NCBI GenBank assembly: GCA_001938485.1 | Contig: MQRK01254642.1 | Coordinates: 1 to 64,000 of the forward strand | From: Girardia tigrina | Lineage: Eukaryota | Reading direction: 5' to 3' | Length of the DNA: 64,000 bases | Part shown: positions 43,101 to 62,643 of the stretch, piece after piece | How positions within the stretch are numbered: position 1 is the first letter of the stretch | How the letters are laid out: every line of letters begins with the position of its first letter | Notes under the pieces: generated by a model | What the model was told of the DNA's origin: nothing | Database searches by the model: none | The model's input: the letters and a program-made list of their open reading frames with translations, nothing else | Translations under genes and position numbers: made by a program

Positions 43101-44503
43101 AAATATTTGAAATTTATTGTATATGCTTAAAACATTTCGAATAATAGTTTTTTAAAATGATTGGTGATTAAAAAAAAATTTTCGAAGCTTATCACAAAAG
43201 CATTTGTTTTAAATAAAGCATTAAAAATTCACTTTGTCAACCTCGTGATAAATACTCAACATTATTAAACTTACTCATCACTAAAATCAAGTATTAATAA
43301 AAAATTCGCTAATTCAATCCCAAATCCATCTTGTTCTATTGATATTTTAAATTATTGATCTTTAAAAATAAAAAACCAATTTTAAAACAACTGAAAAAAA
43401 AACGTTTTTGATTAACAGTTTAAAAATAATCCTAAACCGGTTACATAACAAGATTATAAAAAAATAAAAAAAATTCTTTCTTTTGAAAAAGAATAATAAT
43501 AATAAAATCAACACATTATAAAAATTTAATGCATACAAAGTCAAATGATGACTGTAATTGTTTCCAAGATACACTGTTAAGTTTTCATTTGTATAATTAA
43601 CATGCGGCCGTTTTTGTTAAAATGCTTTGTTCCAGTATTGGATATATAAACAATTTTTTGTGTTTAGACTTGAATTTTATTTTTTCTCTATCCAAAGAGC
43701 AGGAAGTTACAGTTAAAAGGAATTAAAACAACCAAAACGAAATGCTAGTTCTTAATAAATATCGATAATAACCTTGGCAGAACTTATACTAGCGTGCTTC
43801 ATACAATTTAGACAGTGAGATTTGTATTCTATTTAACTTGCCACACACACAACCGCACACACTCACTCACAGTATTAATCAAGATAGAAAAACAAATTAC
43901 GATTTTCCTACTCTGTCTCTCATTTATACACATTAGCAATTAAATCATGTATGTTTAATTTGTGTGTCAGGTCGTAATAACGGCCGCTTTCAATTTAAAC
44001 CCATCACAAATTGGCATTAACAAGCCTTTTCTCGCGTCATAATTTAAAAAGAATTTACTACTGCAAAAATACACACACCAAACTGACATATATATTAAGC
44101 AACAAGAAAATATTCTGACTCATAGTAGTATGTTGAGAAAATCTCGATTTTCATTGGCTACCTTTGTATCAAATTCGCTTCATTAAAAATTCTATCGATT
44201 GGAATTCTTTGTACATTAAAAACTAATAACACACACACATACACAAGCACAATACATAATAAATTATGATCGATGCAAACAACATACACACACGATTTAT
44301 TTAAAAGCATACACACAAACGTGTTTGTTTATTTCATCTATTTGTTGATTGTGTGTTTGCGCTATTTTAGAAAAAAAATTTTTTTTCGTTTAATAATTAT
44401 TGTTTATTTTTATTTTTTTTCGATTCAATTGGATCGTTAAATTGACGCAGTTAATATTATTTTGTATTTTCCAAATGCAATATTGATTTAAACGAGGAAA
44501 AAA

Positions 44504-46153
44504 ATGTCCAAACCAATCAATTCTCAACCGATTCAAAAGTCATCGAGTAATTCTAATATTAATAGTTTATCGACGACATCGACTGCAATTTGTTCGTCTA
44601 CAATCCCCAATGCGCCTTTGCAAATCCAACCGAAACCTGTCGTCACGTTTCTCCAAACGACAAATCCATCGAGAATCATTCCGTCTCAACCGGCGGCATT
44701 CGCAATCCAATCGAACAATCAGTATATCGCGAATATCCAACCGAATTATTCCCACCCGAGTCTCACCCGTCCCCAGCCGTACAATATGCCGACCGGGAAC
44801 TCGTTCACGTTCACTCTGGCGCCAATTGCCGCCAAACCAATCGATAATTCCACCAATAATAACAACAACAATCACGTTTCTGCGCTTCCATCGAACTTTC
44901 AACCGATCCAAATGCGTCCGTCGAACAGCAACGCTTCCAAACAACCTCCGACCGTTCTTCCGCCTTCATCGGCAAATATTTCGTCCGCGGCTGCCGGTGG
45001 TTATTATCGCGAATGGATTCTCGAAGCCATTGATAAATTACGTGAAAGAAAAGCGCGTCCCGACGCCGAACGAATCTCAACGTTAATGAAACGATATCAT
45101 AATATTCCGTTAGAAGACACGGTGATGTGTTTGAATAAATTAGCGGATTCTGGGGCGGTTGTTTGCGTTGATTATAAAGGTAATATTAGTTATAGAAATC
45201 CATATAAATGGAGAAAGAATAGCGCCAATGGTGGGGGAATTATGAATCCGCCGAGTATCACTAATCGGATCTTGGAGTCGTTCCGTCATATGGAAAAGAC
45301 TCGAAGTACGGATTCACAAAATCCCCATAAAGTCGGTTATTCAATTAATGAAATCGAACAGGCAATTTTGGCGACTCAAACGTCCGGTTCAATTGAGTTA
45401 TCGAAAACGCAATTGAGACATTGTTTGGAACGGGAAGCGGCGTATGGGAAATTAATGCGCCGGGCCGACTGTACGTATGTGATTGATGAAAACGGGGAAA
45501 AAAAGATCCGGAAAGCCGCTGCAATTCAAGCGAAGAAAACTGCCTTCAGTCATAAACCTCTGCCGAATAAAACGATCGCCGCAGCGCCTCATCCTATTTC
45601 TATAGCGACGACCACCCCGATGATAACCAATATTCAAACCCCGATCGTTAGTAATAATTCATTTACCGCTTTTTCCGTTCAACAGATTCAATCTTATAAT
45701 CCGCAAATGCCGCAATTTTTACCCCAAAATGAAAGATCAATATTGCCAATGTTAACGACAAATAATGCATTTACGAGTATTTCGTTAGCGTCAGTTAGTC
45801 AACCTAGTCCGATTTTACCGAAACAAACCCCACCCCATATGACTTATGTAAAATGTGAAGCATCTCTCACTCCGGAAATCAATTCCCTACCGCAATTGCC
45901 AGTCGTTGTGACGAAATCAACTCAAAATAACACTAATTGCGTTTCTGAAACTGAAATAAAAGAATCGCAATTTTCCAGTAGTATTTCAACGACAGTTCAA
46001 TCAATATCATCATCAGTTATCACTACTCCGACAATGGGAAATACAACAAATGCAGAAATTAAAACCACAACGAAAACAAGCAGGCGTGGCAGACCACCTG
46101 GATCGAAAAACAAACGATATCAAGAATCAGAAAATAATACTATCTCGAATAAG
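44504..46153 (+). CDS. SAMD1: Exon 1 of SAMD1-like gene (low-complexity N-terminus, WH1 ~45002-45201, probable WH2, AT-hook ~46081-46110)
   Basis: 565-aa ORF; donor AAG|GTTGGA after codon 550 (phase 0); the ORF tail beyond it is AT-rich and intron-like. Confidence 0.85.
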
Positions 46154-49100
46154 GTTGGAATTAATATTTTTTTGATTATTATTATTATTATATTTTGTTG
46201 ATTTTTTTATAATTTAAATATTCAAAAAAAAATAATATTAAAAAAACCCCGAGACTCAATATCACAATTTATTAACATACACACACACGCACGCAATGAG
46301 CGCGATTTGATTACAGATAAGACTCTATGACTAATGCAAGGGATTGAACAAGGCATGCAAACACGGACACACAATCACATTTAATTAATCGCGATTGAAC
46401 ACAAACATGATCATTGTGCATATAAATATTACATATAAAATAGAATTATGACAAGAGAAACTGAATTTCTATCTCGGTGTGTTTATTAATAAAGTATATA
46501 CGAAATATCTCTATTTGATATACAATCTCACAATCTCATAATACATCATATCGGTTTGCATCATTCTCTGATAAAAAACAAACTCTGCGATACTTGACAT
46601 TGATTTGTCAATGCATCATTCGAATGTTTTCTTGATTGGCTATATCGTTTTTTATCATAATAAAAAAAATTAAATTATAACTGCATTAATTTTCAAACGC
46701 ATCAATTAAACACAAAAATGAAAACAAAATCAAACGGAAAACTTTTTTGTTGTTTGTAAATCAAATTAACCAAATCGAAAAATTCATTCCGAATATTATT
46801 TCTAATTTTCTTTGAATTAAATACTATTGATATTTGATAGTAATAGAATTGAAAAATAATTTATTTTCGTGGTTTTTATTTATTTATTATTATTATTATT
46901 ATTAATAGTTTTATTGTTTAGAAACAAAAGATCGATGTAGAAAATCACGCGACAAACGTGTCGGCTCCGTCATCGTGTTCGGCGTTGAGTGTGAGCAATT
47001 CCGATCAAACGGTCCCGGCCATGGGAACGGTCATTGAAATGTGTTCCGAATGTAAATCGCCTCAAACTGATTATGAGAAATTTCTCTACTGTAAAGACTG
47101 TAATGTGAAAGGTATAATTATAATTCGTTACAGCGGAGTATTGTCCGCCCCCCCCTACCGAGAAATAATTTTTCTTCTAAATTGTTCGTTTAACTCTCAT
47201 ATTTCAAATGATTTTTTATTAAAAAAAATATTACAACAATATGTTTGAAATATTTTATTTCGTATTTTTTTCTTTAATTATATTAATTAAAATTATTAAT
47301 TTAAAAATAGTAATTTAAATTATTAATTAAATTATAGCAATAATAATTTCAGTAAAAAAATGAAGTTATTTTAATTTAAAAAAAAGAAATTTAAAAACAA
47401 ATAATGAGAAAAATAGTAATAAATTAATTAATTTATTATTATTTTTTGCGACATGCAAAATAATCTGTTCATAACTGTAGATTCCAGAAAATCAGATGGG
47501 GAATTGACCCCCCCTAAATATTATTATTGCGTTACCGAGTCTGTGATGGGACTTTTAATCGCCTATTAATTAATGTAAAATAACTGTTTTTTTCCATTTT
47601 TTGAAGTTTATCTTTTGATTTTTCATGTAACCTATGATTAAAGAGAGTTCTAGTAATTACCCCCACGCTTGGATTCTGCCATGTTTGCTAGTGATGTAAA
47701 ACGACACGGTGGAGAATCCTTAACTGAAATCCTAGGATCATAATAAGCAAAATAACGAAGTTGTCCTAATTAGTGTCACGCATATTTTCAATTATTTATG
47801 TTTCACTTTGGGTATTTCTATCAATTTCCGAAAGATTTTTATAATATGATCAAGTTAGGCTCTTTTGATATTCAAAAAAATATATTATTTACAATTATTT
47901 AATTTTTTTTTCTATTTGATTCAAATATATTTTAAAATTTTCTTTGAATCAGTGACTAATTTTGATCAAAAAAGCCCCTAGGCCCTCTTCTTTCTTTTTG
48001 ACCTTAGTCGTTGGGCCATTGGGTTCACCCAATTATAAACAAACCTTCGCAACATCTCTATTTGTAGTTTCAATTCTCAGACATTTCATACTCAATCCAC
48101 TCTATTCTTTAAAATTGTCTATCCATTGCCTCTTTGGTCTTCCTCTTGGTCTTTGTCCTTCCAGTCAATCATAACCTTTGCTAGTGATTGTTTTCTCATT
48201 TGATGGTCTTCTCGTGATGGTCACTTCTATTGATTACGGTCTTTTACCTAGTATATCTATCACTCTCCTCCAGACAAAGTCGTTTGTCTTCTTTTTTTTC
48301 CACGTGATCTTCAGCATTCTCCTGTAGCACTTCATATCAAACGCTTGAAGTCTATCCATGCTCTTCTGATTTATTGTCCAACTCTCGCATCCATAGAAGA
48401 GTGTTGCCCAGACAATAATCTTTTTGATCTTTATTCTGCTCTTGAGGCGGGTTGCTTTGAGGTTAAACACTGTGCTAAGCTTAATCATTGCGCTTGTTGC
48501 AATACCAGGAGCGCGCATATGCCCCCCTTATGCATGCTACTGCCTTGGCCACTATGTATTTAAAAGCTCCACAATTTGATTTAGTCATAATATGTTATAT
48601 AGTAAATAGTATATTTTTGAAATAGACAAAATACAAAAAAACAATACAAACAATAAACAAAAACATCAAGAACACAATAAAAAAACTAATATTTACTTTT
48701 ACGTAAAACATTAATAAATTGTTTCAAATTTTTTAAGTTAATTAATTTTATTTACATTCATTTTTTCTAATATTTCACTTTATATTAAAAAAAGGACTGA
48801 AGATGAAATATTTTCTTAACCCTTTCCAGCCCAAATTATTATTTTTGAAAAAAAAATTTTATATTGTTGTTTTGTTTCTAGAAACAAGTGAGAATCACGA
48901 TTTTTTGCATTCTAATATATGTAGTGTCTTCTATTAGACTTTTCAGAAACTATTACTATGTGTAAAATTTAAATTGGGTAAAAGAGATAACTGTAATTTA
49001 ATTTTTCAAATATGTTGCCATATGGCAACAATGGGCTGGAAAGGGTTAATAAAAACAATATACATAAATTATTTAATAGTAATCCAATAGCACAGTCAAT

Positions 49101-50165
49101 ATCAGTTCAATTATTCGCTCGTATTACCAAGATGGAGTGTGTAACTATGATTTATTTTTTCTAGAAAACAATTTTGATATTTTATTATTTCATTCAATTT
49201 CGAAACACTCTTGACCGGGGTCCTCTAATATTTTTGATTCCATACACTGTTCTCATTGGTAAAATGTGTCATGTCTGGAGTTTATAAATGAAATTGTTAA
49301 ATTTAGATACAACGAAAAATTGTTTTTTAATTTTTTTTATGAAAAATAAATTTAAATTATTTAATGTATTAAAGTAAATTGATTAAAAAAAATTCACGAT
49401 GGGGGTAAAATTTTTAATTTTTTTTAAAATTTATCTTATTGTAATTTGTCTTCAGTTCATCCTTCTTGTTTGCATTATTGGCCAGAATTAACAGAAAGAG
49501 CAAGACAGTCACCTTGGCAATGTAGTGCTTGTAAAACGTGTTGCGTTTGTAAAGATCGGAGTTCGAAAGTAAATTTTACGAATTATTTATTTATTTTATT
49601 AAAATATTTCTAGGAATCTGTGTATATTTGTGACGGTTGTGATAAAGGATTTCATTCAGCTTGCCATGAGCCTAAAATACAAGAACCAATATCTCGAAAT
49701 GCAGCTTGGATTTGTTCCAATTGCTATAAAGAAGGTTTTCGTATACGTTCAGAAGAATCAATGAAAAATTCCACGGAACCAGTAGCGAAAACCTATAAAG
49801 AAAGTCCTAGTGAAAAATCAGAAACAAGAAATTCTTCCGAAAAGCCTATTGTAGAAATTAAAAAAGAAAATGTAGTAGTGGAGGATAGTAGGAAAGAAAA
49901 CACAGTTACTAAAAAAAGTCGGCCAGACGATATCACGAAATGGTCAACGGATGATGTTTGTGATTGGTTGACTGAAGAAGGCTTTGGCGTCCAGTCGGGA
50001 TTGTTCAGGGAACAAGAAATCGACGGTGGCTCATTACTGTTGATGAAACGAATGGACGTGCTAACAGAATTGAACTTAAAGCTCGGACCGGCTGTGAAAA
50101 TTTACGAAAAGATTAAAAAAATTCAAAATGATGGATCAATATGGAAATATGACGATTGTTTCTGA
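44504..50165 (+). CDS. SAMD1: SAMD1/atherin-like chromatin protein (WH, WH2, AT-hook, double PHD, SAM); join(44504..46153,46922..47111,49456..49568,49614..50165), 834 aa
   Basis: Three GT-AG introns join four exons in frame (1650+190+113+552=2505 nt). YYREWILEAIDKLRERKARPDAERI...VDYKGNISYRN matches the SAMD1-type winged helix. RRGRPPGSKNK is an AT-hook. CSEC...CKDC..VHPSC...WQCSACKTCCVC...CDGCDKGFHSAC...WICSNC is a double PHD finger. WSTDDVCDWLTEEGF...FREQEIDGGSLLLMKRMDVLTELNLKLGPAVKIY is a SAMD1/SAMD13-type SAM domain. Confidence 0.88.
46922..47111 (+). CDS. SAMD1: Exon 2 (first half of PHD1)
   Basis: Acceptor TTTAG ends at 46921; reads KQKIDVENH...CSECK...CKDCNVK; donor G|GTATAA (phase 1). 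Confidence 0.85.
47985..48507 (-). mobile_element. RTE-type LINE 3' fragment in intron 2
   Basis: LFYGCESWT...RLQAFDMKCYRRMLKITW...TN, then G.RPRGRPKRQWID, and an AAAG/AAG-like tail. Confidence 0.85.
48820..49045. mobile_element. piggyBac-type MITE in intron 2
   Basis: Perfect 14-bp TIR CCCTTTCCAGCCCA; TTAA TSD on both sides; subterminal palindrome TGTTGCCATATGGCAACA. Confidence 0.92.
49456..49568 (+). CDS. SAMD1: Exon 3 (PHD1/PHD2 junction), absent from ORF track
   Basis: Acceptor TTCAG; reads (V)HPSCLHYWPELTERARQSPWQCSACKTCCVCKDRSSK; donor GTAAAT; followed by a 45-nt intron (49569-49613). Confidence 0.88.
49614..50165 (+). CDS. SAMD1: Exon 4 (end of PHD2, charged linker, SAM domain, stop)
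   Basis: Acceptor TTCTAG; ESVYICDGCDKGFH...; SAM domain; TGA ends at 50165. Confidence 0.9.
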   Translation, partial: ESVYICDGCDKGFHSACHEPKIQEPISRNAAWICSNCYKEGFRIRSEESMKNSTEPVAKTYKESPSEKSETRNSSEKPIVEIKKENVVVEDSRKENTVTKKSRPDDITKWSTDDVCDWLTEEGFGVQSGLFREQEIDGGSLLLMKRMDVLTELNLKLGPAVKIYEKIKKIQNDGSIWKYDDCF

Positions 50166-51122: not shown

Positions 51123-52406
51123 TTAGGTTGATGCAAAAGAAATGTCGTTTTTTAACTGTCAACTTTAAATGAACATAACTTTCTTTAGAATTAACTTTAT
51201 TAGTCAAAATAAAAACCATTATATTGAACACCCTGTTGCCAGTGGATAACAAGTTTTTTTATTCTAGTTTCATAAAATTCTTGAGTTCTGGAGGCGATGA
51301 AGTCATCCAAGGCTCTTTCAGCATCTCCTTAGTTTCTGAAGCATTTTTCACGAAGGAACTGGCTGAAATGTTTGAAAAGGTGATATTCTGTAGGAGAAAG
51401 GTCTGGTGAGTACGGTGGATGAGGCAAAGTTTCATATCTCATTTCGTTTAACTTCAGCATGGTCTTTCTTGGAACATGTGGACGAGCGTTGACATGCACA
51501 AGAATTGCCCCCTTTCTATTGAGTAATGCCGGCCGTTTATTTGTAGTTCTTGGAGCATTTTGTCAATTTGCTGACAATACTTTTTCCGCTGTAATTGTTT
51601 CGCCTTGTTTTAGGAAGCTGTAATGGATTAAACCGTGTGTGGACCGCCAAACAATTGCCATGACTTTTTTGATGTAATTTTGACTTCGGGAAAGGCTTTG
51701 GAGCTTCATTGAAATCCAACCACGGAGTTGAATGTCGCCGGTTGTTGTATAGGATCCATTTTTCATCGCACGTTACAATTCGATCCAGAAACGAGTCGCT
51801 TTGATTACGCAAAAGCAGAGAAGAACACATGTTAAAGCGACGATTTTTTTGATTTTCTTTTAATTAGTGCGGCACCCACTTGTTCAGCTTTTTCACTTTC
51901 CCGATTTTCTTCAGATGGCGAACAACTGTTGATTGGTAAACGTTGAGTTCTTGAGCAACTTCCCGTGAGTTTTTATGCGGGTCGGCATTGATTAACTTCT
52001 TCAAATAGTTGTCGTCAACTTGTGATGGTCGACTACCGTGTTTTTCATCTTCAAGGCTCTCGTTGTCTCTACAAAACTTAAAAAACCAACGTTGAACTGT
52101 TTGTAAATTAGTGGTATGTTGTCCAAATACATTATTAATATTCCAAGCCGTTTCTGTCGCTTTTCGACCTAGTTTGAAATCGTAGAATAAAATTGTTCTC
52201 ATTTCCTTCTTTTCTAACATTTCTAAAATAAAATAAATATACCTTAAATTAACAACATTAATGTTATACTTGGTATCAAAATATAGAGTAAAGTTTAAAC
52301 TTTAAAGTAAATTTAAATATGAATCTATTTATTAATGTTTTTCTAAATATTTCAAACAATGAATATTAAATACATTAAAAACGACATTTCTTTTGCATCA
52401 ACCTAA
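51123..52406 (-). mobile_element. Full-length cecropia-subfamily (Hsmar1-like) mariner; transposase 52220-51200 disrupted
   Basis: Perfect 30-bp TIR TTAGGTTGATGCAAAAGAAATGTCGTTTTT; TA TSD; WVPH*L, IVTCDEKW, HPPYSPDLSPTEYHLF, GFYFD*. Confidence 0.95.
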
Positions 52407-60221: not shown

Positions 60222-60709
60222 TATTAAGAAAATTTAAACAAGTCTCATTTGAATTTTTATTGCAATTACATTTAGAGTCATTACAACTCTCAGAAGGTCT
60301 TTCATCGTTTGCCATCGTTCTAATTGATTTTCTTATTTCTGTTTTTAATCATGATTATTCGAACAATTTTTCTAAGTTATTTTTTAAAATATTTAACCTC
60401 TAAAAATATTAATTAAAAAATAATAATTTTTATCATTTCTCAATAAATCCCAAAATAATCAAACATGTCATCAAATTATTAAAAATGCATTTAATTTAAA
60501 TTTGACTAAAAATTATTAAACTTAATTTTAATTGTGAAATTAAAAATATGAACTTATCAAATGATTATTTTAATTATGTTCGAATAGTCAATCCTTTAAA
60601 TTTAATAAAAAAATACAAAGTTCCATCTGGGTGGGAAAATCACCATTCTAAATTCAACATACATCCTCAATACATTTACACAATCAAACAATTTAAAATA
60701 TTCCTCACA
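60222..60709 (-). mobile_element. Solo LTR-like family B
   Basis: TATTAAGAA...TTCCTCACA; perfect TSD TATCT. Confidence 0.85.
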
Positions 60710-60740
60710 TATCTAATGATCTAATATTATATAAATCTTC

Positions 60741-62643
60741 TGAGATTGCCGAAACACCTTTCCAAGAGATGATGACAAAGGTATTCGGAGGAATCAATGG
60801 TGCCACTGTATACTTAGATTATATCTTGGTATACAAAAAAGATCGGGAGCAACAGTATATTGTTTTGAATCAAGTTTTAGACATTATTAGGAAAGCAGGA
60901 TTGCGGGTGAACCCAGAAAAATGTCAATTGTTGAAAAGGGAAATTAAATTCCTTGGACATATAGTTAACGAAGACGGTGTTAAAACGGACCCGTCTAAGA
61001 TTGAAGCAATAAGAACGTTTGTGAAGCCAAAGTGTGTTATAAACTTACGCAGTTTTTTGGGCATTTGTAACTATTATCGACGATTTATAAAAGAGTATGC
61101 AAATAAAGCCAGAGTATTAGAATAATTATGCGGATCGAATAACTATAAAAAACTCAATTGGACAAGCGAGCTAGAGTTAGCATTCGAAGAGCTGAAGAAT
61201 GCATTAATTACAAGATCGTTATTGTGTTTTCCAGACATGAAAAGAGATTTTATTCTAGATACGGATGCTAGTTTCGACACCATTGGAGCCGTGTTAGCCC
61301 AGAGGGACGATCAATGAAAGGAAAGAGTTGTGGCTTATGGGTCGCGATCAATGAATAGCCACGAGAAGGGCTATTGTGTTACAAGAAAAGAATTGCTTGC
61401 CATGTATTATTTTTGTAACCATTTTATACATTTTCTGTATGGTAAACGGTTTATTTTGCGTACCGACCATAAAGCAATAACGTTTATGCTGAATACTAAG
61501 AAACTAATTACATCGCAGTTTCAAACGTGGATTAACTATCTGAGCAGTCTGGATAGGAAGTTAGAATTTCGAAAAGGATCTTTGCACACGAATGCTGATA
61601 TACTTTCAAGGATGAATTGTGATACGTGTACTCAATGTTTAATGCAACACGAGGAAGCTAAGAAAGAAAAAATCAAGACACGTGCACTAGATGTTGTATC
61701 AGAAGATGAAACCACAAAGCCACTAGAAAATATTATCTGGGAATGTTGGCACACGCGGGTGCAAGAAAAGTTGAGTATTATTTAAGAGACTTTAAGGATT
61801 TTGACAAGCTGAAAGGTAAGATCAAAGAGCTTGTACGCAGTTGTGAATCATGCCAAAAGTTTAAAACATATACGACAAAAACAAAAGAGAACACGATAAA
61901 ATTAGAAGCTACCTAGGTTTTCGAATGTATTTATGTAGATATTTGTGGACCGTTGAAAGAGACTTCTGGGAAAAAGAAATATATTCTAGGCATCATTGAT
62001 CAGTTCAGTAAATACATTACGCTATTAGCAATATCGAAACAAGATGAAGAGTCGATAATAAAAGGAATAATGCGGAATTGGATACTGAAATTTGGTTCTC
62101 CCAAGGCGATGAATGTGGATTGCAGTAAAGTTTTTGAATCAAAAAAGATGAAAGAGTTCGCAGAGAAACAGAATTTTGAAATTAGATTCTCCAGCCCTTA
62201 TCATCATAACACAAACGGACAAATTGAACGACAATTCCGTACGGTGAGAGAATTGATAAATGCAACATTGCATGAAAGAAAAAGTTCCGACTGGGCAGAG
62301 ATTCTACCGGATATAGAGTTCTCATTAAATGCCACATTACAGACGACTTTCGGGATGAGTCCAGCTGAAATCATTTTCGGAAGACGCATTAGCAGGGAGA
62401 AATGGGATGGAAAAAATAGCAAGACAATATGAGCGGGACGAGGGGCCTATCACACGAAGACAATTCTTCCCAGGAGATGATGTATTGGTAAAAGTAGAAT
62501 CTAGAAGAAATGATCAAGTGAGATACGACGGGCCAAATAAAGTAGTTCGAAAGTACATGATAGAAGATATGTGCTTGAAGATATGTCTGGTAAAACATGT
62601 GAAAGAAATGTGGAGAAAATTAAAAAATTCTTGAGTGCGGGGG
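60741..62643 (+). mobile_element. Ty3/Gypsy pol remnant (RT, RNase H, integrase) ending in a PPT-like tract
   Basis: YLDY (degenerate YxDD), LRSFLGICNYYRRF, LDTDAS, KELLA, RTDH, SPYHHNTNGQIER, YDGP; GAGTGCGGGGG then TGTAAG. Confidence 0.93.

What the first reader, a model, noticed from the sequence alone, without database searches (positions are those of the whole stretch)
44504..50165. SAMD1 homologue carrying the KAT6-type WH-WH-double PHD module plus an AT-hook, but no acetyltransferase
Seen: the spliced protein has WH1, a probable second WH, an AT-hook, a double PHD and a SAM domain. Established: vertebrate SAMD1 has only WH and SAM, while KAT6A/B have WH1-WH2-DPF-MYST. WH1 (RKARPD, YKGNISYRN) and SAM resemble SAMD1 more than KAT6. 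Inference: a single protein could read unmethylated CpG, AT-rich minor groove and histone H3 tails and polymerise via SAM, possibly as an ancestral-type architecture. Similar invertebrate proteins may already exist in databases under KAT6-like names.
Basis: partly seen in the sequence, partly recalled or inferred. Interest (0 to 1): 0.7.

Follow-up and report, generated by a model that had tools for sequence, protein, structure and literature searches.

The report
Flatworm SAMD1/Lint-O orthologue with double PHD
This is a real, spliced flatworm gene for a chromatin protein with two winged-helix domains, a double PHD finger and a SAM domain but no enzyme part; the same design is common in invertebrates, it is the counterpart of vertebrate SAMD1/SAMD13 and probably of fly Lint-O, and it likely binds CpG DNA and silences genes together with L(3)mbt.

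Summary
Observation confirmed. Four exons give an 834-aa protein: WH1, WH2, RGRP hook, double PHD (DPF), SAM, no MYST. Transcript-like contigs in 4 of 4 runs join exons 1-2-3 and leave no room for a MYST exon. The design is not rare: 67 of 214 proteins held have WH1-DPF-SAM (flatworms, molluscs, annelid, brachiopod, nemertean, arthropods, tardigrade, starfish), often misnamed 'KAT6-like'. This scan already found it in another genome (e1-9528444). WH1 groups with vertebrate SAMD1/SAMD13, apart from KAT6 (100/100). 8 of 9 DNA contacts and 13 of 14 SAM interface residues of SAMD1 are kept. Two corrections: fish, coelacanth, lungfish and shark SAMD1/13 still keep WH2 (Pfam's 'small helical domain'), so vertebrates lost mainly the DPF; and this DPF keeps the H3R2 pocket but has an altered K14-acyl pocket. 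Best reading: a CpG-binding, SAM-oligomerising L(3)mbt co-repressor. Ordinary family member; of interest because SAMD1 is published as vertebrate-specific and flatworm KAT6 models lack WH1.

The parts
44504..46153 (+). Exon 1 (aa 1-550): low-complexity N-terminus, WH1, WH2, low-complexity linker, RGRP motif
   Evidence: covered by one contig in 4 of 4 runs, starting at 44314-44408
45011..45199 (+). WH1, SAMD1-type CpG-binding winged helix (aa 170-232)
   Evidence: PF21524 E 2e-24; SAMD1 6LUI 57 bits vs KAT6A 7Y43 31 bits; model vs 6LUI Z 13.2, rmsd 1.0, 67 aligned; tree
45251..45484 (+). WH2, second winged helix (about aa 250-327), homologous to vertebrate SAMD1_SHD and more distantly to KAT6 WH2
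   Evidence: AF2 model, fold search, independent invertebrate WH2 profile 34 bits
46082..46099 (+). RRGRPP AT-hook-like basic motif (aa 527-532)
   Evidence: a GRP motif lies between WH1 and DPF in 46 of 67 full-architecture proteins
46922..47111 (+). Exon 2: linker and first half of PHD1 (DPF starts about 47042, aa 591)
49456..49568 (+). Exon 3: end of PHD1 and start of PHD2
   Evidence: its first 30 nt are the loose end after exon 2 in 4 of 4 runs
49614..50165 (+). Exon 4: rest of PHD2 (to about 49724), linker, SAM, stop
   Evidence: joint to exon 3 inferred from frame and contig length
49938..50120 (+). SAM domain of SAMD1/SAMD13 type (aa 760-820)
   Evidence: SAMD1 SAM 65 bits vs L3MBTL3 42, Ph 40; 13 of 14 interface residues identical

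Best explanation
The gene encodes the flatworm orthologue of vertebrate SAMD1/SAMD13, probably also of fly Lint-O: a non-enzymatic chromatin adaptor that likely binds CpG-containing linker DNA with WH1, likely oligomerises through its SAM domain, and likely recruits L(3)mbt to repress genes. Shown here: gene structure, splicing of exons 1-3, domain order, family membership, conserved contact residues. Predicted: WH2 fold and SAM head-to-tail self-association. Inferred from relatives: WH1 reads CpG with its RK motif in the major groove and YK in the minor groove; WH2 adds nucleosome-dyad contact as in KAT6B; PHD2 holds the unmodified H3 N-terminus (A1-R2) while K14-acyl reading is weakened or lost; SAM-SAM contact brings in L(3)mbt and, through it, a demethylase/deacetylase co-repressor. 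With little or no DNA methylation in the host (inferred), CpG would act as a plain sequence cue for GC-richer gene regions in an AT-rich genome. History (inferred): a WH1-WH2-DPF module shared with KAT6 was joined to a Polycomb-type SAM before protostomes and deuterostomes split; vertebrates lost the DPF.
For: WH1 tree: 49 SAMD1-family rows (window, 38 other invertebrate, 10 vertebrate-clade) vs 16 KAT6 rows, split 100/100. SAMD1-diagnostic R45 in 67 of 67 and Y87 in 60 of 67 family proteins, 0 of 16 KAT6. Window keeps 8 of 9 DNA-contact residues listed for 6LUI (R56 is T, but R56 is kept in only 3 of 67) and 13 of 14 SAM interface residues. Three SAM copies scored 0.66, best of 3 controls 0.00 (mark reached by 21 of 30 solved pairs and 0 of 23 single chains in microbes; 17 of 29 in eukaryotes, 1 of 7 without an older solved relative); runs agree in at least 96% of contacts, partner pLDDT at least 88; the SAMD1 SAM pentamer is solved, so this shows likeness, not binding. 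The genome holds an L3MBTL1/3-type three-MBT gene. SAMD1 binds L3MBTL3 and KDM1A and represses (PMC8115922); Lint-O binds L(3)mbt through SAM and shares 816 repressed targets with it (PMC9535798). DPF keeps W257, D282, D285, W305 equivalents.
Against: No binding or knock-down data for this protein. Lint-O's sequence could not be examined; it has only 133 aa before PHD1 against 191 or more in full family members, so it may lack one or both WHs and work differently; its authors doubt orthology to SAMD13. Lint-O with eight PHD cysteines mutated still represses, which weakens any H3-reading step. No SAM was found on the fetched part of the L(3)mbt-type contig. The WH1 tree has 71 columns and no ZMYND11 root, so it shows a split, not an order of events; no SAM tree was built. 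The DPF alone does not single out KAT6: family profile scores KAT6A 129, PHF10 124, DPF3 122, KAT6B 119 bits.
Confidence: 0.66

Rival explanations
1. It is a full KAT6-style four-way reader (CpG, AT minor groove, nucleosome dyad, acylated H3K14) that marks active acetylated promoters and dampens them.
For: DPF zinc ligands and the W257-D285 inter-finger pair are kept; S210, L242, W257, C259 of the K14 pocket are identical. RGRP motif is conserved in 46 of 67.
Against: F211 is E, N235 is V, I260 is S in the window; the neighbouring S236-G237 (S in 21 of 21, G in 16 of 21 KAT6) is mostly K/R-A/V in 66 family DPFs. F211 is lost in the four other flatworm rows shown intact. Vertebrates dropped the DPF.
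Confidence: 0.14
2. It takes over promoter targeting for KAT6 in flatworms: KAT6 lost its CpG-binding WH1, and this protein brings the KAT6 complex (or competes with it) at CpG sites, so it acts in activation rather than repression.
For: 6 of 6 flatworm KAT6 models that include the DPF lack a WH1 hit (at most 3 bits, against 74-126 bits for complete sponge, mollusc and vertebrate KAT6). In the own genome only this gene matches PF21524 or the WH1 of a mollusc KAT6.
Against: Gene models may miss a first exon; the own KAT6 locus is fragmented. The family exists beside intact KAT6 in molluscs. Nothing links SAMD1 or Lint-O to KAT6 in the passages read.
Confidence: 0.08
3. Its SAM partners are mainly Polycomb proteins (Ph, Scm, Sfmbt), making it a DNA-binding recruiter for PRC1-type silencing rather than an L(3)mbt co-repressor.
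For: SAM is of the Ph/Scm/L3MBT class; the genome holds Ph/Scm-like SAM genes.
Against: SAMD1 loss did not change binding of classical Polycomb proteins in mouse ES cells (PMC8115922); both studied relatives bind L(3)mbt.
Confidence: 0.1
4. The architecture is a gene-model artefact or a broken KAT6 copy.
For: Exon 3-4 joint not seen directly; three identical copies in the assembly.
Against: Spliced contigs in 4 of 4 runs; 23 silent vs 2 replacement changes; same order in 67 proteins; a separate KAT6 gene exists in this genome.
Confidence: 0.02

Closest known systems
Vertebrate SAMD1 (atherin) and SAMD13
   Same: SAMD1-type WH1 with the RK and YK DNA contacts; near-identical SAM interface; WH2 kept in shark SAMD13 and in sturgeon, salmonid, coelacanth and lungfish SAMD1, where Pfam calls it SAMD1_SHD, PF24971.
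   Different: The window protein has a DPF (none found in 21 vertebrate-clade rows), an RGRP motif and a 168-aa low-complexity N-terminus. SAMD1 is described as vertebrate-specific (PMC8115922) and works on CpG islands in a methylated genome.
Drosophila Lint-O (CG2662)
   Same: Two PHD fingers then a C-terminal SAM; similar spacing of the fingers (C135 to C190 vs C591 to C642); BLAST best human match SAMD13; binds L(3)mbt via SAM (PMC9535798).
   Different: 446 aa with 133 aa before PHD1; no winged helix is mentioned (0 occurrences).
KAT6A/KAT6B/Enok (MOZ/MORF)
   Same: Same N-terminal order WH1-WH2-DPF; WH2 profiles align at hhalign probability 96%; KAT6A is the top PDB match of the family DPF profile, narrowly.
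   Different: No MYST domain; WH1 and DPF fall in separate clades; K14-acyl pocket altered; SAM instead of an enzyme; the genome has its own KAT6.
Invertebrate database proteins named 'KAT6A/B-like', 'atherin', 'SAMD13', 'PHD finger protein'
   Same: Same architecture and order; four ESM Atlas clusters of 63-90 members with PF21524 and PHD, three of them also listing SAM_1.
   Different: Flatworm members have a long low-complexity N-terminus and a more diverged PHD1 (F211 lost, shorter first loop).

Membership tests
SAMD1/SAMD13 orthologous family | SAMD1-type WH1 (PF21524) grouping with SAMD1 rather than KAT6 | tested here: met
   (100/100)
SAMD1/SAMD13 orthologous family | C-terminal SAM closest to SAMD1 with its ML/EH interface | tested here: met
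   65 vs 42 bits; 13 of 14 residues; no SAM tree built
SAMD1/SAMD13 orthologous family | Second WH homologous to SAMD1_SHD | tested here: met
   Invertebrate-only WH2 profile scores window 34 bits, 10 of 10 vertebrate tree rows 15-32 bits, KAT6 at most 11; hhalign 97.7%; fish model matches WH folds over aa 124-214, e.g. Z 9.5, rmsd 3.1, 86 aligned. The window itself does not hit PF24971.
SAMD1/SAMD13 orthologous family | Binds unmethylated CpG DNA | not testable with these tools
   Residue conservation only
SAMD1/SAMD13 orthologous family | SAM self-association | tested here: inconclusive
   Prediction passes (0.66 vs control 0.00) but a like complex is solved
SAMD1/SAMD13 orthologous family | Binds L3MBTL/L(3)mbt and represses | not testable with these tools
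   Partner gene present; its SAM not located
Lint-O | Two PHD fingers plus C-terminal SAM | tested here: met
   vs PMC9535798
Lint-O | Sequence orthology to CG2662 | not testable with these tools
   No Lint-O sequence came up under that name in the protein searches; not in the paper's readable supplements (three .ai files unreadable)
KAT6 (MOZ/MORF/Enok) | MYST acetyltransferase domain | tested here: not met
   None in the 834 aa, no room in contigs, 0 of 67 relatives with MYST motifs
KAT6 (MOZ/MORF/Enok) | WH1-WH2-DPF N-terminal module | tested here: met
DPF (double PHD) domain class | Face-to-back tandem PHD with all zinc ligands, W257-D285 pair and H3R2 aspartates | tested here: met
   PDB DPFs score 119-129 bits vs 72 for the next tandem PHD
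DPF (double PHD) domain class | Hydrophobic H3K14-acyl pocket (S210, F211, N235, L242, W257, C259, I260) | tested here: inconclusive
   4 of 7 identical; F211, N235, I260 replaced; the window DPF was not folded
AT-hook motif | RGRP core with basic flanks | tested here: met
   aa 527-532; no Pfam AT_hook hit
AT-hook motif | Binds AT-rich minor groove | not testable with these tools
   Motif only

The most novel reading that the evidence does not exclude
SAMD1, SAMD13 and fly Lint-O are one ancient bilaterian gene: a WH1-WH2-DPF-SAM protein that is the repressive twin of KAT6 and forms a conserved complex with L(3)mbt. CpG reading by this winged helix predates vertebrate CpG islands and persists in unmethylated genomes. 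In flatworms KAT6 lost WH1, leaving this protein as the only intact SAMD1-type CpG reader, where it silences germline/stem-cell genes in differentiating cells.
Probability: 0.35. Interest if true: 0.68.

Novelty: new member of a known kind. Interest (0 to 1): 0.43.

Why it matters
SAMD1 is published as vertebrate-specific (PMC8115922), DPF domains as a six-protein class in mammals (PMC8538644), and the Lint-O paper leaves open whether Lint-O has a human orthologue because SAMD13 lacks PHDs (PMC9535798). The four-domain invertebrate protein bridges these and would answer that question. It also shows that many 'KAT6-like acetyltransferase' annotations in invertebrates are not enzymes. A single-locus gene in an animal that is likely a planarian makes it testable by RNAi what a CpG reader does without DNA methylation. 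The gene itself is an ordinary member of a widespread family.

Tried and rejected
No run is on record as RNA; the spliced contigs are the evidence. PF00145 found no DNA methylase in the genome (3 candidates scored), but planarians have dnmt2 (section titles of PMC3824064), so the search is insensitive and I give it no weight. No WH was found in 6.7 kb upstream of the own KAT6 DPF exon: inconclusive, the contig ends. The WH2-like start of tapeworm KAT6 is by eye only; profile scores were not significant. Atlas search for PHD+SAM clusters without WH gave nothing at 0.9 or above. The first WH2 profile overlapped WH1 and was replaced by a cleaner one. DPF tree: 5 partial rows dropped, no DPF1-3 or PHF10 rows, sponge-type KAT6 unresolved. 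Xiong et al. 2016 is not held; pocket residues come from PMC3902925. Literature: 10 searches showed no paper describing WH-WH-DPF-SAM proteins or linking Lint-O to SAMD1's WH; most subscription papers are not searched, and orthology databases may already list the fly-human link (recalled, unchecked). Supplementary figures of the SAMD1 and KAT6A papers were not read.
Full report
GENE. Four GT-AG exons (44504-46153, 46922-47111, 49456-49568, 49614-50165) give one 834-aa frame; eight splice combinations were open, and the 834-aa one is the one the contigs support. In 4 of 4 laid runs from 4 studies a single contig of 2584-2701 nt covers exon 1 and passes directly into exon 2, and the loose end after 47111 is the start of exon 3. 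RNA status of the runs is guessed or unrecorded, but the contigs skip the introns. After exon 2 they hold 610-737 nt; exons 3 and 4 need 665 nt, so no MYST exon fits. The exon 3-4 joint was not seen; retaining the 45-nt intron would stop translation before PHD2 is complete. Contig variants in coding sequence are 23 silent to 2 replacement. The rest of the window shows only transposon pieces among ORFs of 130 aa or more. The nearest relatives are tapeworm, fluke and monogenean proteins (tree support 99/96). With the AT-rich 1.43-Gb assembly this points to a flatworm, likely a planarian (inference).

DOMAINS. WH1 matches PF21524 (E 2e-24) and SAMD1 better than KAT6A (57 vs 31 bits). A model of aa 169-335 from a 50-row alignment has mean pLDDT 89.7 and two three-helix, two-strand domains. 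The first fits 6LUI (Z 13.2, rmsd 1.0, 67 aligned). The second fits several WH domains at Z 8.1-8.8, including histone H1x; such Z values are middling, so the sequence evidence below matters more. The DPF spans exons 2-4 with all zinc ligands. The SAM is closest to SAMD1 (65 bits; L3MBTL3 42, Ph 40).

FAMILY. A search with exon 4 gave 56 longer proteins: 44 carry PF21524, 0 carry MYST PF01853, 15 have NCBI names KAT6A/B(-like) and 2 'atherin'. A search with WH1-WH2 over 1.84 billion representatives gave 337 hits at E 0.001; the best 150 were listed. Of 214 proteins then held, 67 (window and some isoforms included) have WH1, DPF and SAM, all in that order, none with MYST motifs; many of the rest are first-exon fragments. 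Named hosts cover flatworms, molluscs, Owenia, Lingula, Tubulanus, chelicerates, insects, a tardigrade and starfish. No named cnidarian, sponge, nematode or dipteran member came up; many rows are unnamed, so the range is a lower bound. An earlier report of this scan found the same design in another genome.

ORTHOLOGY. The WH1 tree (65 rows, 71 columns, no outgroup) separates 16 KAT6 rows from 49 family rows at 100/100, with 10 vertebrate-clade SAMD1/SAMD13 rows nested among the invertebrates (94/91). R45 and Y87 of SAMD1 are kept in 67 and 60 of 67 family proteins and in 0 of 16 KAT6. The DPF tree (54 rows, 5 partial rows dropped) gives the family its own branch (SH-aLRT 89) beside KAT6. Whether its sister is KAT6 rather than DPF1-3 or PHF10 is not settled by the DPF (129, 124, 122 bits); it rests on the shared WH1-WH2-DPF order. 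A WH2 profile built from invertebrates only (no flatworm, vertebrate or KAT6) scores the window 34 bits, 10 of 10 vertebrate tree rows 15-32 bits and KAT6 at most 11; hhalign gives 97.7% to the vertebrate segment and 96.4% to KAT6 WH2. That segment is Pfam's SAMD1_SHD, and in a salmonid SAMD1 model it folds as a WH. So vertebrates lost the DPF and kept WH2 at least to lungfish; mammalian SAMD1 was not examined.

LITERATURE. PMC8115922 (passages, sections 7 and 12): SAMD1 is called vertebrate-specific, binds unmethylated CpG, forms a SAM pentamer, binds L3MBTL3 and KDM1A. PMC9881136 (passages) and PMC9908889 (passages): KAT6 WH1 binds CpG linker DNA, WH2 the dyad. PMC3902925 (passages): DPF pockets. 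PMC8538644 (passages): six mammalian DPF proteins. PMC9535798 (abstract, passages, section 12, supplement search): fly Lint-O has two PHDs and a SAM, binds L(3)mbt via SAM, co-represses germline and piRNA genes, and its loss gives sterility and tumorous brains; BLAST points to SAMD13 but the authors doubt orthology. PMC11969672 and PMC8175269 (passages) mention no invertebrate orthologue. PMC3824064 (abstract and outline): no detectable 5mC in a planarian. Ten searches showed no description of the four-domain family; subscription journals are mostly outside the library.

MECHANISM. DNA: 8 of 9 contacts kept; only R56 differs, and it is rare in the family (3 of 67). SAM: 13 of 14 interface residues identical. 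Three copies score 0.66 against a best control of 0.00, runs agree in at least 96% of contacts, pLDDT at least 88, and the contacts are the mid-loop/end-helix pairs of SAMD1; since that structure is solved and the calibration used two copies, this shows likeness only. Histone: D282, D285, W257, W305 and P301 equivalents are kept, so H3 A1-R2 binding is plausible; F211, N235 and I260 of the K14-acyl pocket are E, V and S, E261 is A, and S236-G237 is K-V, so acyl-lysine reading is doubtful. Partner: a three-MBT L3MBTL1/3-type gene exists in the genome, though its SAM was not located. Context: no CpG depletion in the window (o/e 1.09). I therefore commit to a CpG-binding, SAM-oligomerising L(3)mbt co-repressor (0.66); family identity itself is about 0.95, Lint-O orthology about 0.8.

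SIDE RESULT. Six of 6 flatworm KAT6 models that include the DPF have no WH1, whereas complete sponge, mollusc and vertebrate KAT6 score 74-126 bits, and WH1 queries find only this gene in the own genome (lower bounds). Missing first exons cannot be excluded.

VERDICT. Real gene, correct architecture, ordinary member of a widespread and mostly misnamed family with studied relatives at both ends (SAMD1, probably Lint-O). New member of a known kind; interest 0.43, carried by the orthology bridge, the WH2 = SHD identity and the possible KAT6 WH1 loss.

Noticed in passing
P0219, P0220, P0222, P0223, P0248, P0267; G000:C251086 and C61168: Flatworm KAT6 models with DPF and MYST lack WH1 (6 of 6); a rotifer KAT6 (P0215) lacks both WHs. 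In the own genome only the SAMD1-type gene matches WH1 queries. Gene models may be incomplete.
   Followed up: partly
P0139, P0142, P0158, P0164, P0170, P0188, P0195: Pfam PF24971 'SAMD1 small helical domain' is the family's WH2; shark SAMD13 is a full WH1-WH2-SAM protein.
   Followed up: yes
G000:C26066, C56896, C254642: The gene lies on three contigs with no difference over the 3.2 and 3.5 kb compared: probably assembly redundancy.
   Followed up: partly
window 44001-47000: CpG observed/expected is 1.7-1.9 over exon 1 and intron 1, against 1.09 for the window; not compared with other genes.
   Followed up: partly
P0069, P0116, P0098, P0112, P0123: Derived relatives: tick-type proteins with 3-4 tandem SAMD1 WH copies, a tapeworm protein with two diverged WH1-WH2 units, and sea-slug paralogues that lost the DPF independently of vertebrates.
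   Followed up: no
P0009, P0066, P0067 and others: Several fluke gene models carry DUF3504 (PF12012) pieces inside the protein, possibly transposon-derived or mis-joined.
   Followed up: no
window 51260-52300 (-): Broken mariner-type transposase (Mos1 HTH, PF17906) about 1.1 kb downstream of the gene.
   Followed up: partly
window 60697-62432 (+): Broken LTR-retrotransposon pol pieces (RT, RNase H, integrase).
   Followed up: partly
window 48000-48530 (-): Stretch in intron 2 that looks by eye like the end of a LINE element; no Pfam hit at E 0.01.
   Followed up: no
L043:2610-5210 (G000:C251878): Single 867-aa open frame with MBT repeats and a diverged Scm-like SAM.
   Followed up: partly
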